From Candidatus Aenigmatarchaeota archaeon (GTDB lineage: Archaea > Aenigmatarchaeota > Aenigmatarchaeia > CG10238-14 > SCSR01), in contig JAWBTW010000004.1 of the NCBI GenBank assembly GCA_039000165.1, forward strand, positions 32,470 through 48,420: DNA of 15,951 nucleotides. The letters are read 5' to 3'. A program made the position numbers. Positions 3,001 through 6,000 of this stretch are shown one piece after another. The stretch's first letter is position 1. Each line of letters begins with the position of its first letter.

Positions 3001-6000
3001 CGCATTCTTCTTGAATTTTTGGTCCGCCTTTTTTTCTTATTGCTCCTGCTACTCCTCCACCAAGTTTGAGTTTAGAGTTAGCAGCATTAACTATTGCATC
3101 GCCTTCAAAATCTGTTATGTCACCTTGAACAATTTCCAAAATGCTTTTGTTGATATTTACTTTCATTTCTAACCCTATAATTCTCAAGACAAGCACGCCC
3201 TCGCTGGGATTTGAACCCAGGACCTACCGGTTAACAGCCGGGTGCTCTACCACTGAGCTTTCCTCGTAATTACTACGAGGGCTGCGAGGGCTTAATATAT
3301 TTTTTAACAACTTGTTTTCATCAATTAAATATTCTTCTATACTTTTATAGAATTTCCTTAAATTATTAGGCGTTATAACAAAAACTTTATAACCTCTTTG
3401 TTGTAAATCCTTTATCTTCTTTTTTAATTTCATAGCTTTATCAAAACCTTTCCACATGCTACATTCTACAATAAGGTTACCAACCTTGAAATCTGGGAAA
3501 TAATATTTTTTATTGACATTTATACAAGGTTCGTATTGATAATTTATTCCAAATTGAAATAATGTATCAGCAATTTTCTTTTCTAAAGTATTTCTGACGA
3601 GTTCACCACGTTTGGTTTTAAATTTGTAGCTTCCAATCTTCTTAAACCGTTCATATTGCTCTAAGAAATATTTTTCACCTAATTCTTTTCTAAGTTTTTT
3701 ATGTAACCTGCTAGAAGCTTTTTTCATCTTAATTAGATTTTTTCTGAATGTTTTGCTTCTAACCTTCTTTAAGTAGCTGGCTTTACCACCAATCCTTTGT
3801 TTCCAGTTTTTATCTAACCGTTTTTGAATAATTTGCTCGATATCAACTTCTTCTAAACCTAAAAATTTCATGAGTTTGTTAAGAACATATCGAGAAATAG
3901 GTCTACCTTTATGTTTATAATAATATATTGCAGATTTCACTACATTTAAGGTTTTTGCCAACTTTCTTTCACTACCAGCCTTTTTTATGGCCATGTTAAT
4001 TATGTTTTTCTGATCTTTTAATTTAAAATACATAATAAAAACTTTGTTTATTACTATTTAAAGTTACTTCCAACTGAGCTACGAGGGCTTTTTAAACTAC
4101 TAATATATTATTAGAAAAAATTTTAAAAGTAAGTTTAATCTAAGGTAAGAAGTCTTTTTTCTCTATTTTTTCTGGCAAATAGTTTTCTGTTATAAATTTC
4201 AGGCCTTTTCCTGATAAAGCTTCTAATTCAGCTTTTATCTTTCTTTCAATCATAAGTTTTAATTCCTTTTGCCAGGCTGGGTGTTTGAACCATTCATAAT
4301 TCAGCATTTCTTTTGCTCTTTTTATGTCAACCTCTTCTGCTTTTATAGTAAAATCTTTTAAGCCAAATTTATCTATATCACTTATCGTTAAACCTAAAAA
4401 TTTTGCGTTTGGTGTTCCTAATCTATCAGAAACATGAGCCAGACTCATCGAACCGTATTTTATAACTGAATAAATATACCATCCATAACTGTTATGGAAA
4501 ACTATACCATTTCCACCTATAAAAGAATTAGAAACTGGAACAGCAAGATCAAAAACATCACCTTCATATTCTACTTCCTCTATTTTCTTTATTTTAACTA
4601 GAGTTATCATGTTTTCAAAAGGTTTTAAATTTTCAAAATCTTCCTTAAACTTTTCAGGAATTCCGTACTCTCTTACAGAATCTATAAATCTATCTTGATT
4701 AATCAACCTAGCTTTAACTGAATAAGGTACACCAAAATTATTCATAAGATTTGTTAAAATTCCTTTTACGTTTCCTTCATTCGGTAAACCATAAATTGAA
4801 TCATTGGTATAACATAATTTTGAACTTGGAGAAATCCCAAGTTTTTCTTTTATTTCTTCGCTCATTCTTGTATAAGGTATTCTTACATAGTAACCTTTAG
4901 AGTAATAAATTGTTGGCATTACTCCGAAAGATAAAAGAAGAAGAGAAAGTTGTTTTGCTAGCATCTCACTTTTTGTGAAATAAACTATATTATTATACTT
5001 ATCTATATAGCCGTCTCCTTCTATTAGACCCTTAATAAATGCCATTTGAACCTCGAAAGGAGAATTAAAAATGAAAGGAAGAATTTGTTTTTCTGAGGCT
5101 CCTGATTTTAAGCCGAAATAAGAAAATATTTTAGAAAGAATGGAACTTCCTACCGAAACCCTTATCCCTGTTTTCTTCCTTCCTTCTAAAGACAAAGAAA
5201 AGTTAAGATTTAACTTTTCCTTTAAAATTCTTTCAATTTTTTTTATCTTTTCTTCTTCCTTAGAAGACAAACTAAAAATGACATACCTTGAATACAAAGA
5301 GCCTTCTGCAACCCACAACCCAAGTAACCAAGCCAAATCTTCGTCTATTTTTATTTTATTTACTATTTTTTGTTTTCCTTTCACATGTCTTACAAACTTA
5401 GCTTTTCTTACATTCTTTGCTTTGGAAAGGGTTTGTATTTTTCCGTCCTGATAGATCAGCTCTATTCTATTCCATTTATTTTTCGGCAAGATTTGCCTCA
5501 AAATCTCACTTACGTAAAAAACTTTTTCCTTTCCGTCAAACCTTGGAAAACTTTTAGAAACAACCAGATAATCTCCTTCTTTAAGTTCTGAAGCCCTAGC
5601 AACTACTATCTTACCATTCTTAAAACTAAAGAGAGAGTGGTGAGGCGTAACTTCTATGATTCCCCTTCCTCTTGTAAAAATTCTTAGTAATTTACCTTTA
5701 ATTTTATGACGATAAGCATATTCAACCTCTTTCCATTCAATTATACCATCACTTCTCATAGAAAGAGTTTCCCAAGGGACAAAAATTATCTCCTTACTTT
5801 TTTCTTTGTTTAAAAATTTTTCTAAAAGTTTACCTATTGGTGCAGCAAAAACTTCCTTAGTATTCTTATCTCTAACCACAACAACTTCAGAAGGAGGTAT
5901 AGAATCTGCATCAGTAAAAACATACACTGGAAGGTTAAACTCTGTAGCCAATCTTTGAATTAATCTTCTTGTCCCTCTTGCAGCCTGACCTTGAGTTGTG

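What a model noticed while it worked through the whole genome (the two positions that open the first line are those of the whole stretch)
3196..4088. 0.82-kb endonuclease cassette inserted in the D-loop of tRNA-Asn, carrying a replacement 5' exon with an intron
The tRNA-Asn(GUU) gene was hit by an insertion of about 820 nt (C4:35719-36538) after position 19. The original 5' end survives as a 19-nt relic (36539-36557). The insert brings a 269-aa HTH protein with a nuclease-like C-terminal motif, a second copy of the acceptor strand, and a new 5' exon. That exon is interrupted by a 15-nt intron at 8/9 (35729-35743). After splicing, a perfect tRNA-Asn results. I read this as a mobile, homing-endonuclease-like element that targets a tRNA gene and leaves an intron in it.
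Evidence so far: - Rfam matches only model positions 9-63. - Sequence layout: calls 45, 46. - The fold and splicing rule give a 72-nt cloverleaf. - Empty sites: congeners G005 and G003 have the same upstream gene end and spacer, followed by an intact gene. - The ORF is found in 3 of 41 genomes (G000, G001, G023; call 96). - In G023 (another genus, 64% aa identity) the relic, ORF, tandem acceptor copy and intron are all conserved. - G024, G015 and G007 have plain genes. - ORF features: a weak Cro-like HTH, and an atlas score of 0.96 to a cluster of 113 archaeal hypothetical proteins.
(Added by a program. Inside this text positions count along the whole contig: contig position 32,470 is position 1 of the stretch shown here. 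"Call 12" and the like, gene names such as g00115 and contig names such as C1 are that model's own, and its searches are not shown. The text may have been shortened before it was handed on; [...] marks where a part breaks off. The agent that wrote the report below was given it as the finding of a first reader that could run no searches.)

Follow-up and report, generated by a model that had tools for sequence, protein, structure and literature searches.

The report
Nuclease cassette inside archaeal tRNA-Asn gene
A small, selfish-looking gene for a DNA-cutting enzyme sits inside the asparagine-tRNA gene of a hot-spring archaeon and carries its own replacement gene start with a tiny intron, which may show one way such tRNA introns arise.

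Summary
On the minus strand lie:
- a 19-nt copy of the tRNA-Asn 5' end (4088..4070);
- a TATA-like box;
- a 269-aa ORF (4033..3224);
- an imperfect acceptor copy;
- a new 8-nt 5' exon;
- a 15-nt intron with bulge-helix-bulge geometry;
- the rest of tRNA-Asn(GUU), down to 3196.

Congeners G003 and G005 have an uninterrupted gene at the same place.

New here:
- With an 82-sequence alignment the ORF folds confidently (pLDDT 92) into an XRE-type HTH plus a restriction-endonuclease-like domain. A profile search hits T7 endonuclease I (E 1e-5). Fold matches are Bax1 (Z 9.5) and homing endonuclease I-Bth0305I (Z 8.5).
- A distant relative lies inside a 23S rRNA insertion.
- The family is specific to DPANN archaea. 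In 28 of 29 distinct loci the ORF runs into a tRNA-Asn gene; the other is tRNA-Thr. Fifteen of 28 loci keep a clear upstream relic.
- The ORF is rare: 3 of 61 and 6 of 121 genomes. Broken copies exist, and so do alleles with the intron but no ORF.
- A LAGLIDADG ORF in the same window has the same layout next to tRNA-Phe.

Best reading (0.6): a homing-endonuclease cassette that replaces the tRNA 5' end and installs an intron. Cleavage, splicing and direction of events remain unproven.

The parts
4089..4139 (-). Native spacer and promoter region between the Top6A stop codon and the original tRNA-Asn start. It now lies upstream of the relic.
   Evidence: It aligns with the spacer that precedes the intact gene in G005 and G003. 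It holds AT-rich TATA-like stretches, read directly.
4070..4088 (-). Relic: a 19-nt copy of tRNA-Asn positions 1-19, with one extra T in the D-loop compared with the congeners' gene.
   Evidence: unique, no shuffle hits. It sits where the gene starts in G003 and G005. Joined to positions 20-73 it still gives a 73-nt tRNA-Asn by ARAGORN.
4055..4062 (-). TTTAAATA box 21 nt before the ORF's ATG, a likely archaeal promoter for a leaderless mRNA.
   Evidence: Read. A similar box follows the relic in G023 and in most family loci. Promoter function is inferred.
3224..4033 (-). 269-aa ORF (P0001). HTH domain, residues 4-72 (about 4024..3818). Helical linker. Nuclease domain, residues 126-251 (about 3658..3281). 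The last 19 codons are tRNA sequence read through.
   Evidence: weak Cro/YdaS HTH; PHROG endonuclease, E 2.6e-7. The tail has pLDDT 52-53.
3283..3291 (-). Imperfect tandem copy of the acceptor 5' strand (GCCCTCGCA), just before the functional 5' exon.
   Evidence: Also present in G023, in L089 in decayed form, and in the ORF-less allele of G027. Its role is unknown.
3275..3282 (-). Replacement 5' exon, tRNA positions 1-8 (GCCCTCGT).
   Evidence: Fully complementary to the 3' acceptor strand. Needed for the 72-nt cloverleaf.
3260..3274 (-). 15-nt intron at position 8/9 with a relaxed bulge-helix-bulge/loop motif. The central helix pairs C3-C6 (CCUC) with intron GAGG. The cuts fall as GU|A and AA|A.
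   Evidence: Geometry read. Removing it gives tRNA-Asn(GTT). The leading A and the GAGGAA end are kept while the loop varies in G023, L089 and G027. Splicing was not observed.
3196..3259 (-). tRNA-Asn(GUU) body, positions 9-73. No CCA is encoded.
   Evidence: Rfam RF00005, 48.9 bits, model positions 9-63. ARAGORN result after splicing.

Best explanation
This is a homing-endonuclease-type selfish cassette that specialises in the tRNA-Asn gene of DPANN archaea.

**What the cassette carries**
- Its own promoter-like box.
- A gene for a two-domain protein: an XRE-type HTH for DNA recognition and a T7-endonuclease-I/Vsr-like PD-(D/E)XK nuclease.
- At its downstream end, a replacement 5' end of the tRNA gene. 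In this lineage that end is interrupted by a 15-nt bulge-helix-bulge intron at position 8/9.

**Proposed mechanism**
1. The enzyme cuts an unoccupied, intron-free tRNA-Asn gene in its 5' third, around positions 8-20.
2. The break is repaired from an occupied allele. This copies the ORF together with the intron-bearing 5' exon.
3. The recipient's own 5' end is left behind upstream as the relic. The relic then serves as the left homology arm for later rounds.
4. The tRNA stays functional. The host splicing endonuclease removes the small intron and RNase P removes the long leader.
5. The intron probably breaks up the enzyme's recognition site and so protects the occupied allele, as in 'collaborative homing'.
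6. Later the ORF decays or is deleted, leaving an orphan non-canonical intron.

**Shown:** the layout, the empty sites, the fold, the family-wide link to tRNA-Asn, the rarity of the ORF, broken copies, and ORF-less intron alleles.

**Inferred:** cleavage and its site, repair-mediated copying, protection by the intron, splicing, and the order of events.
For: **Layout and empty sites**
- Relic, ORF, new exon and intron are all present. Syntenic uninterrupted genes lie after Top6A in G003 and G005.

**Protein**
- AF2 model: pLDDT 92.4, pTM 0.70.
- Profile search against PDB: T7 endonuclease I, E 1.2e-5, aligning E151, D181 and E190.
- VIA fold search: Bax1 nuclease Z 9.5 (102 aligned, rmsd 2.8); I-Bth0305I homing endonuclease Z 8.5 (88 of 98 residues, 23% identity); PspGI 8.2; TnsA 7.9; Vsr 7.9. 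The N-terminal 4-72 matches Cro/CI-type HTH at Z about 8.
- PHROG 'endonuclease', E 2.6e-7.
- E151, D181, E190 and K206 are invariant in 37 sequences and at least 90% conserved in 82.

**Relative in an rRNA insertion**
- A 292-aa homologue (32% identity over residues 129-248, E 9e-7) lies inside a 967-nt insertion in the 23S rRNA of G051. It also matches PADLOC 'homing endonuclease' at E 1.2e-4.

**Target link**
- 30 of the 32 loci examined have a tRNA starting 702-771 nt after the ORF start. The two exceptions are cut off at the ORF.
- 28 of 29 distinct tRNAs carry the Asn loop CTGTTA; one is Thr.
- The first 15 nt of the new exon recur within 150 nt upstream of the ORF at 12/15 or better in 15 of 28 loci. 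The best of 5600 control windows was 11/15.

**Selfish-element pattern**
- Full ORF in 3 of 61 relatives and in 6 of 121 genomes of a Woesearchaeota-type order, one of them broken.
- A 26-codon remnant in L056.
- A 275-nt internal deletion in a metagenome contig.

**Intron link**
- 24 of 29 ORF-linked tRNAs have an intron in the 5' third: 22 in the D-loop and 2 at 8/9.
- In the D-loop type the relic ends exactly at the 5' splice site.
- In 61 Aenigmatarchaeota relatives the 8/9 intron occurs in only 4: G000, G001, G023 and G027.

**G000 against G001**
- 2 differences in 956 nt across 3196-4151.
- 31 differences in the adjacent 341 nt.
- 2.4% divergence over 5905-15950.

**Processing genes present**
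- RNase P RNA and the EndA catalytic domain.

**Parallel case**
- A LAGLIDADG ORF sits next to tRNA-Phe in the same window, and similar pairs occur in relatives.
Against: - No nuclease activity, cut site, splicing or transfer has been observed, and no RNA run holds the locus.
- The canonical Lys of the (D/E)xK motif is Ser or Thr in this family (position 192). K195 or K206 would have to substitute.
- Pfam gives no nuclease family. The best Foldseek E-value is only 1e-3.
- 5 of 29 loci (L014, L015, L017, L018, L023) have the ORF and a relic but no intron in the 5' part. An intron therefore cannot be the general protection.
- 6 of 28 loci show no relic.
- Direct repeats of a tRNA part flanking an insert are the classical mark of site-specific integration, not of homing.
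- ORF-less intron-bearing alleles (G027; an X8 contig; 6 of 13 D-loop-intron genes) could be ancestors rather than remnants.
- The ORF tree follows host lineages and shows no sign of transfer between phyla.
- Other low-divergence stretches exist in the G000/G001 comparison, for example 3 differences in 9751-10500. The near-identity of the cassette is therefore suggestive only.
Confidence: 0.6

Rival explanations
1. Intron first, nuclease second. The intron-bearing tRNA-Asn allele, with its tandem acceptor copy, arose independently and is old. The free-standing nuclease gene later settled just upstream of it, because the intron shields that allele from cleavage (classical collaborative homing). 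The cassette spreads the pre-existing intron but did not create it, and the relic is a by-product of one imprecise repair event.
For: - ORF-less, relic-less alleles with the intron and their own promoter exist in another genus (G027) and in a roughly 90%-related strain.
- 6 of the 13 D-loop-intron tRNA-Asn genes in the Woesearchaeota-type order have no ORF or remnant.
- tRNA-Phe shows the same three states. G004 has the tandem copy and intron but no ORF.
- The ORF (6 of 121 genomes) is rarer than the intron (13 of 121).
Against: - In the genus of G000 the plain allele (G003, G005) and the full cassette share the same chromosomal site. The relic shows that the intron-bearing 5' end arrived together with the ORF at a plain gene.
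- ORF remnants upstream of intron-bearing genes (L056, G091) show that at least some orphan introns descend from occupied alleles.
Confidence: 0.15
2. Integrative element. A small circular DNA carrying an attachment site equal to the tRNA-Asn 5' part, with an intron in it, integrated by site-specific recombination. The relic and the new exon are attL and attR, as proposed for the Caldiarchaeum tRNA-Thr locus.
For: - Direct repeats of the tRNA 5' part flank the insert.
- An ORF lies next to the rebuilt tRNA on the same strand, as at pNOB8-type borders described in PMC3293823 (sections read).
- TnsA, a transposase subunit, is among the fold matches (Z 7.9).
Against: - No tyrosine- or serine-recombinase domain is present. 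The only ORF has an HTH plus a restriction-endonuclease-like fold.
- The element is 0.8 kb with a single gene.
- A relative sits in an rRNA insertion, which is typical of homing endonucleases.
Confidence: 0.1
3. Giant ORF-bearing intron (twintron-like). The upstream 'relic' is a live 5' exon. About 0.83 kb, including the ORF and the internal exon copy, is spliced out at the same 3' splice site, perhaps giving a circular mRNA for the nuclease, as with archaeal rRNA introns.
For: - Relic positions 1-8 are identical to the new exon. Joining them at the same 3' splice site gives the identical mature tRNA.
- In the D-loop type the repeat ends exactly at the 5' splice site.
- In 8 loci the relic acceptor strand still pairs 7/7 with the 3' strand.
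- The native promoter region is intact upstream of the relic.
- ARAGORN with long introns allowed joins the relic and the tRNA body.
Against: - Relics decay. They score 11/15 or less in 13 of 28 loci and are not detectable in 6.
- G023's relic has G at the normally invariant A14.
- The proximal exon copy is always intact and adjacent, so it should win in folding.
- There are no RNA data.
Confidence: 0.08
4. A host gene, not a selfish element. The protein is a regulator or repair/processing nuclease co-transcribed with tRNA-Asn, and the upstream tRNA fragment is an unrelated duplication.
For: - The association with tRNA-Asn is strict, and the ORF tree follows host lineages.
- Catalytic-type residues are conserved.
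- No copy was found in viral contigs.
Against: - It was found in only 3 of 61 and 6 of 121 related genomes.
- Congeners lack it at the same site.
- Broken and deleted copies exist.
- A relative lies in an rRNA insertion.
Confidence: 0.04

Closest known systems
Insertion at the tRNA-Thr(GGU) locus of Caldiarchaeum subterraneum (Sugahara et al. 2012, PMC3293823; abstract and sections 4 and 7 read)
   Same: - A 5' fragment of the tRNA lies upstream.
- The insert's ORF (813 bp, nearly the same size as here) lies directly next to the rebuilt tRNA on the same strand.
- The rebuilt gene has one extra intron in its 5' part (24/25).
- Alleles with and without the insert coexist.
   Different: - That is a single locus in another phylum, a 1.87-kb insert with a repeated 'a' region, and tRNA-Thr.
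- Its ORF was only guessed to be a recombinase, and the model was pNOB8-like integration.
- Here the ORF has a nuclease fold, the element is 0.8 kb, and the arrangement is family-wide on tRNA-Asn.
- Whether ORF 'b' is homologous to this family was not tested. I did not have its sequence, and the paper's supplementary figures were not consulted.
Collaborative homing: free-standing F-CphI beside the intron-containing psbA of cyanophage S-PM2 (Zeng, Bonocora and Shub 2009, as described in PMC6083498; passages read)
   Same: - A free-standing nuclease gene lies next to an intron-containing target gene.
- The intron is proposed to prevent self-cleavage, while the nuclease gives the intron mobility.
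   Different: - That case involves a phage, a self-splicing group I intron, a protein-coding target and an Endo VII-type nuclease, with no target duplication.
- Here the setting is archaeal, the intron is protein-spliced (BHB), the target is a tRNA gene, the nuclease has a PD-(D/E)XK-type fold, and a duplicated 5' exon is present.
- The cleavage site here is unknown.
PD-(D/E)XK and EDxHD homing endonucleases (I-Bth0305I, PDB 3r3p). I-Ssp6803I in the tRNA-fMet intron of Synechocystis is recalled from memory, not from a call.
   Same: - Restriction-endonuclease-like catalytic core (Z 8.5 to 3r3p).
- In the recalled I-Ssp6803I case the target is also a tRNA gene.
   Different: - Those enzymes are encoded inside self-splicing group I introns.
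- This protein has an N-terminal XRE-type HTH, lacks the canonical Lys, and is not inside the small intron.
- Sequence similarity is closest to T7 endonuclease I.
ORF-bearing introns of archaeal rRNA genes with LAGLIDADG endonucleases (general knowledge; group I examples in DPANN in PMC6125680, passages read)
   Same: - The hosts are archaea, the targets are stable-RNA genes, and occurrence is sporadic.
- A relative of this ORF lies in a 23S rRNA insertion.
   Different: - There the ORF is inside the intron and no exon is duplicated.
- All 21 ORF-bearing archaeal group I introns in that paper had LAGLIDADG domains, not this family.
tRNA-gene integration of archaeal plasmids and viruses (pNOB8 and SSV types, as summarised in PMC3293823 section 7)
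   Same: - A partial tRNA copy is left at one border and a rebuilt functional tRNA at the other.
   Different: - Those elements are kilobases long and encode an integrase. No integrase is present here.

Membership tests
Homing endonuclease gene (functional class) | Encodes a site-specific DNA endonuclease that cuts alleles lacking the element | not testable with these tools
   Only the fold and conserved acidic residues are shown.
Homing endonuclease gene (functional class) | The gene sits in or beside its presumed target, which is interrupted in the carrier | tested here: met
   The ORF lies between a tRNA-Asn 5' fragment and the rebuilt gene. The ORF runs into tRNA-Asn in 28 of 29 distinct loci.
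Homing endonuclease gene (functional class) | Sporadic occurrence, with empty sites in close relatives and decayed copies | tested here: met
   Found in 3 of 61 and 6 of 121 genomes. Empty sites in G003 and G005. Broken copies.
PD-(D/E)XK (restriction-endonuclease-like) superfamily | Core alpha-beta fold of the superfamily | tested here: met
   Model pLDDT 92.4. Bax1 Z 9.5, I-Bth0305I 8.5, PspGI 8.2, TnsA 7.9, Vsr 7.9. T7 endonuclease I profile hit, E 1.2e-5.
PD-(D/E)XK (restriction-endonuclease-like) superfamily | Catalytic motif E...PD...(D/E)xK | tested here: inconclusive
   E151, P180-D181 and E190 are conserved. The xK position (192) is Ser or Thr, while K195 (mostly K or R) and the invariant K206 lie nearby.
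Phage T7 endonuclease I family (Pfam Phage_endo_I) | Match to the Pfam model above its curated cut-off | tested here: not met
   No such row appears in the Pfam scan at E up to 1. Only the alignment profile finds the PDB chains 2pfj and 1m0d.
Archaeal bulge-helix-bulge intron | Two cut sites in 3-nt bulges (or a loop) separated by a 4-bp helix | tested here: met
   Read: helix CCUC/GAGG, 5' side GU|A opening into a loop, 3' bulge AA|A, 2-bp outer helix. This is a relaxed form. The MFE fold prefers a 7-bp hairpin instead.
Archaeal bulge-helix-bulge intron | Removal restores a canonical tRNA | tested here: met
   ARAGORN calls a 72-nt tRNA-Asn(GTT) only after removal of 3274..3260.
Archaeal bulge-helix-bulge intron | Splicing seen in RNA | not testable with these tools
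   No listed holder of the locus is on record as RNA.
pNOB8/SSV-type integrative element | Encodes a tyrosine-recombinase integrase | tested here: not met
   The Pfam, NCBIfam and PHROG scans of the only ORF give an HTH and an endonuclease, no integrase.
pNOB8/SSV-type integrative element | Direct repeats of a tRNA part at both borders | tested here: met
   An 11-nt exact repeat here and 15-18 nt in L012, L019, L033, L034 and L036. Relic test.
Collaborative homing pair (free-standing nuclease plus intron) | Nuclease gene adjacent to an intron-bearing target gene | tested here: met
   24 of 29 ORF-linked tRNAs have an intron in the 5' third.
Collaborative homing pair (free-standing nuclease plus intron) | The nuclease cuts the intron-less allele at the intron insertion site, and the intron blocks cleavage | not testable with these tools
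   Needs cleavage assays. 5 of 29 loci have no 5' intron, which argues against generality.

The most novel reading that the evidence does not exclude
Nuclease cassettes may be a general route by which archaeal tRNA genes gain non-canonical introns.

- In DPANN archaea at least two unrelated endonuclease families home into the 5' third of tRNA genes. One is the HTH plus PD-(D/E)XK family on tRNA-Asn. The other is LAGLIDADG ORFs on tRNA-Phe, tRNA-Pro and others.
- Each event replaces the gene's 5' end with a copy that carries a bulge-helix-bulge intron, and this intron shields the site from re-cutting.
- The nuclease gene then decays and is lost.
- What remains is an orphan intron at 7/8-9/10 or in the D-loop, sometimes with a stray tRNA fragment that could seed split tRNA genes.
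Probability: 0.3. Interest if true: 0.9.

Novelty: new variant of a known kind. Interest (0 to 1): 0.8.

Why it matters
**An open question.** How archaeal tRNA genes acquire their many non-canonical introns and fragments is unsettled. A 2026 preprint on Asgard tRNA introns concludes that 'how they arrive remains open' (10.64898/2026.10.13.758758; passages read). The only mechanistic lead I found in print is a single Caldiarchaeum locus (PMC3293823).

**What this finding adds.**
- A family of dozens of loci shows all stages side by side: plain gene, gene with nuclease cassette plus relic plus intron, broken cassette, and orphan intron.
- The question therefore becomes testable with one protein and two DNA substrates.
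- The finding also defines a previously unnamed nuclease family: 61 clusters at E 1e-30 or better, with no curated Pfam or NCBIfam model reaching its cut-off. Its presumed target is a fixed, conserved site of about 20 bp.
- It warns annotators that tRNA-Asn is missed or mis-typed in these genomes.

**Literature check.** Six full-text searches found no paper describing this family or this arrangement.

Tried and rejected
- **RNA evidence.** No RNA holder is listed for the locus, so splicing, choice of 5' exon and expression could not be examined. Only DNA contigs were laid.
- **Pfam, NCBIfam.** Neither names the nuclease domain.
- **PADLOC.** It gives only weak matches to candidate-defence nuclease domains PDC-S68 and S69, at E 2e-7 and 1e-5. 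I did not read this as defence, because of the fixed tRNA context.
- **Foldseek against PDB.** No row below E 1e-3. The VIA wide search was needed.
- **The search for related loci with the 37-sequence alignment.** It failed for lack of a conserved stretch, so a 21-sequence alignment was used instead.
- **ARAGORN with introns allowed.** It mis-types most of these genes (Leu, Ile, Ser and others) because it assumes anticodon-loop introns. I read anticodons from the loop motif instead.
- **Viral contigs.** 246 pattern matches, none a relative.
- **Metagenome scan.** It added only one new G000-type locus, L089.
- **ORF tree.** It gave no sign of transfer between phyla, so it does not support horizontal spread beyond lineages.
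- **tRNA-Phe context in G003 and G002.** Both are cut by contig ends.
- **A BHB between the relic's position 19/20 junction and the body.** I looked for one by eye and saw no complementary 4-mer; no computation was run.
- **Not used:** Complex prediction and the protein atlas.
- **Not tested:** homology to the Caldiarchaeum ORF 'b', because I did not have its sequence.

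
Full report
**Setting.** The window is G000:C4:32470-48420 of a 783-kb DPANN archaeon. Its near-twin G001 is a record titled Candidatus Aenigmatarchaeota from a hot spring. Earlier notes of this scan describe the genome as rich in non-canonical tRNA introns. 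In the window, Rfam finds four tRNAs. Two carry inserts, and one matches only model positions 9-63.

**Observation.** Reading the minus strand:
- The Top6A gene ends at 4140.
- A 51-nt spacer follows.
- The 19-mer GCCCTCGTAGCTCAGTTGG lies at 4088..4070.
- TTTAAATA lies at 4062..4055.
- A 269-aa ORF runs from 4033 to 3224.
- GCCCTCGCA lies at 3291..3283.
- GCCCTCGT lies at 3282..3275.
- 15 nt lie at 3274..3260.
- AGCTCAGTGGTAGAGC... continues to the discriminator G at 3196.

ARAGORN calls a 72-nt tRNA-Asn(GTT) only when the 15 nt are removed. The 19-mer does not occur in 200 shuffles, even with three mismatches allowed. In G005 and G003 the Top6A stop is followed by a similar spacer and an uninterrupted tRNA-Asn 5' part. 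Their other introns lie in the anticodon arm. G023, in another genus, has the same layout at 63% protein identity and 68% DNA identity.

**The intron.**
- The 15 nt fit the archaeal splicing rule in a relaxed form. Exon C3-C6 (CCUC) pairs with intron GAGG.
- The 5' cut lies two bases beyond that helix (GU|A). The 3' cut lies in an AAA bulge (AA|A). G1C2 can pair with G10C11.
- The minimum-energy fold prefers a 7-bp hairpin instead, so the motif rests on the geometric rule, not on thermodynamics.
- Four different versions are known: G000, G023, L089 and G027. All keep the leading A and the GAGGAA end, while the loop varies in sequence and length, giving introns of 15-18 nt.
- G000 encodes RNase P RNA (135.8 bits) and an EndA catalytic domain (95 bits), so both processing steps are plausible.
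- Splicing itself could not be checked, because no RNA run holds the locus.

**The protein.**
- Pfam sees only a weak Cro/YdaS-type HTH.
- With 82 homologues AlphaFold2 gives pLDDT 92.4 and pTM 0.70. The tRNA-encoded tail is disordered.
- A profile of the family hits T7 endonuclease I in the PDB (E 1.2e-5), aligning E151, P180-D181 and E190 with that enzyme's metal-binding residues. The Lys position is Ser or Thr here.
- The VIA wide search puts residues 126-251 next to Bax1 (Z 9.5), the homing endonuclease I-Bth0305I (Z 8.5, 88 of its 98 residues), PspGI, TnsA and Vsr. It puts residues 4-72 next to Cro/CI-type repressors.
- Foldseek alone was weak, with a best E-value of 1e-3.
- PHROG 'endonuclease' matches at E 2.6e-7.
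- The protein is therefore an HTH fused to a restriction-endonuclease-like nuclease whose acidic residues are conserved. Activity is not shown.

**The family.**
- The word-indexed search found 81 proteins, named by their sources as hypothetical proteins of Woese-, Pace-, Micr-archaeota and Diapherotrites.
- The exhaustive profile search found 61 clusters at E 1e-30 or better and 166 at 1e-10 or better.
- One scan of species-representative genomes returned 31 loci.
- In 30 of the 32 loci examined (those 31 plus G023) a tRNA begins 702-771 nt after the ORF start on the same strand, usually overlapping the stop codon. The other two are cut off inside the ORF.
- After removing one duplicate record, 28 of 29 tRNAs have the Asn anticodon loop and one (L016) is tRNA-Thr(UGU).
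- Many proteins end in ...ASVA(Q), which is simply the tRNA 5' end translated.
- A remote relative (292 aa; 32% identity over residues 129-248; 21-23% in the family alignments) lies inside a 967-nt insertion of the 23S rRNA of G051. That is a setting typical of homing endonucleases.

**Relics and introns across the family.**
- The first 15 nt of the functional tRNA recur 43-98 nt upstream of the ORF at 12/15 or better in 15 of 28 loci. They recur at 11/15 in 3 more.
- 5600 control windows never exceeded 11/15.
- Six loci show no relic. This looks like a decay series.
- In 8 loci the relic's acceptor strand still pairs fully with the 3' strand.
- Of the 29 tRNAs, 22 have an intron in the D-loop, 2 have one at 8/9, and 5 have none in the 5' part.
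- In the commonest type (GCTTAG|AC-hairpin-GGAGCAA|CAGG) the relic ends exactly at the 5' splice site.
- The ORF tree groups by host lineage, and each architecture is confined to a clade.

**Signs of a selfish life cycle.**
- The full ORF occurs in 3 of 61 Aenigmatarchaeota relatives.
- It occurs in 6 of 121 genomes of the order around L035, one of them broken in two.
- All six lie next to the D-loop-intron form of tRNA-Asn, which 13 of the 121 genomes have. Of those 13, five have an intact ORF, one a broken ORF, one a 26-codon remnant and six nothing.
- The 8/9 intron occurs in 4 of 61 relatives. G027 has it with its own promoter-like box and the tandem copy, but with no ORF and no relic.
- In metagenome run X8, a contig of a roughly 90%-related strain joins the end of Top6A to the sequence just upstream of the tandem copy, through 25 unrelated bases, and skips the relic and ORF. 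Another contig lacks 275 nt inside the ORF.
- Between G000 and G001 the stretch 3196-4151 differs at 2 of 956 positions. The next 341 nt differ at 31, and the following 10 kb by 2.4%. This suggests recent exchange. It is not conclusive, because other quiet stretches exist.

**A second case in the same window.**
- A 268-aa LAGLIDADG-like ORF (1594..788, minus strand) runs into tRNA-Phe(GAA).
- That gene has a tandem acceptor copy, a 17-nt intron at 9/10 whose 3' part pairs with the acceptor strand, and a 12-nt anticodon-loop intron.
- Homologous ORFs in relatives are followed in the same way by tRNA genes in 8 of 10 loci that I read. Rfam lists 5 of them.
- In the genus, G005 has a plain tRNA-Phe 5' part, and G004 has the tandem copy and intron without the ORF.
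- Two unrelated nuclease families therefore share one arrangement.

**Mechanism.**
I favour a homing cassette (0.6).
1. The enzyme cuts plain tRNA-Asn genes in the 5' third.
2. Repair from an occupied allele copies the ORF and the intron-bearing 5' exon.
3. The recipient's own 5' end stays behind as the relic and later serves as a homology arm.
4. The intron keeps the tRNA functional and probably breaks the recognition site, as in collaborative homing (PMC6083498).
5. The ORF later decays.

Against this:
- No activity is shown.
- The canonical Lys is missing.
- Five loci lack a 5' intron.
- Flanking direct repeats are the classical mark of integration.
- The order of events is unresolved.

The rivals are intron-first colonisation (0.15), site-specific integration as proposed for Caldiarchaeum (0.10; PMC3293823), a giant ORF-bearing intron that uses the relic as a live exon (0.08), and a host factor (0.04).

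**Comparison and novelty.**
- The closest published case is the single Caldiarchaeum tRNA-Thr locus.
- The closest mechanism is collaborative homing in cyanophage.
- The closest folds are the T7 endonuclease I, Vsr and I-Bth0305I-type nucleases.
- Six full-text searches found no description of this family or arrangement. A 2026 preprint states that the route of tRNA intron arrival is open.
- I rate it a new variant of a known kind, with high interest, because it makes that question testable.

Noticed in passing
window 711-1594 (minus strand): A 268-aa LAGLIDADG-like ORF (1594..788) runs into tRNA-Phe(GAA). That gene has a tandem acceptor copy (825..819), a 17-nt intron at 9/10 (804..788) and a 12-nt anticodon-loop intron. 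This is the same architecture as the tRNA-Asn cassette, with an unrelated nuclease family. Homologues in relatives are followed by tRNA-Phe, tRNA-Pro or other genes in 8 of 10 loci read. G005 has a plain gene, and G004 has the intron without the ORF.
   Followed up: partly
window 4493-5904 (minus strand, inside Top6A 4140-6632): An intein with a LAGLIDADG domain interrupts topoisomerase VI subunit A in G000. It is absent from G001, G003 and G005, whose genes are collinear across the site.
   Followed up: partly
window 3166-3196, against G001 (L063/L064): Directly after the tRNA-Asn 3' end, G001 has 575 nt where G000 has 29 nt. The downstream macro-domain region is only about 88% identical, against 97.6% on the other side. 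This marks a recombination or insertion boundary at the tRNA 3' end.
   Followed up: no
L004 (G051:C45:1-2591): The 23S rRNA has two insertions. The 344-nt insertion holds a LAGLIDADG fragment. The 967-nt insertion holds a 292-aa HTH-nuclease relative of the ORF studied here. The intron type (BHB or group I) was not determined.
   Followed up: partly
L016 (Woesearchaeota record), about 2733-2834: One family member sits next to tRNA-Thr(UGU) instead of tRNA-Asn, with the same kind of D-loop intron. This may be a switch of target.
   Followed up: no
window 3283-3291; L081 about 1484-1492; L085 about 1505-1511: An imperfect second copy of the acceptor 5' strand precedes the functional 5' exon in intron-bearing alleles, including ones with no ORF (G027, G004). 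It may be an older relic or a leader element; its role is unexplained.
   Followed up: partly
G000:C2:71879-71964 (minus strand): A second tRNA-Asn(GUU) gene has a different acceptor stem (GCCCGGG), an intact D-arm and a 13-nt intron in the anticodon stem. The cassette-bearing copy is therefore not the only source of tRNA-Asn.
   Followed up: partly
L022 against L021: A 2.4-kb contig filed under a Chthoniobacterales bacterium MAG looks the same as a Woesearchaeota contig carrying the cassette: the about 370 nt printed around the ORF and the tRNA are letter-identical, and the ARAGORN call is the same. It is probably a mis-binned contig.
   Followed up: no
window 14295-14404 (plus strand): A tRNA with a 39-nt insert next to the anticodon (Rfam 44.9 bits). 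It is one more intron-bearing tRNA in the window.
   Followed up: no
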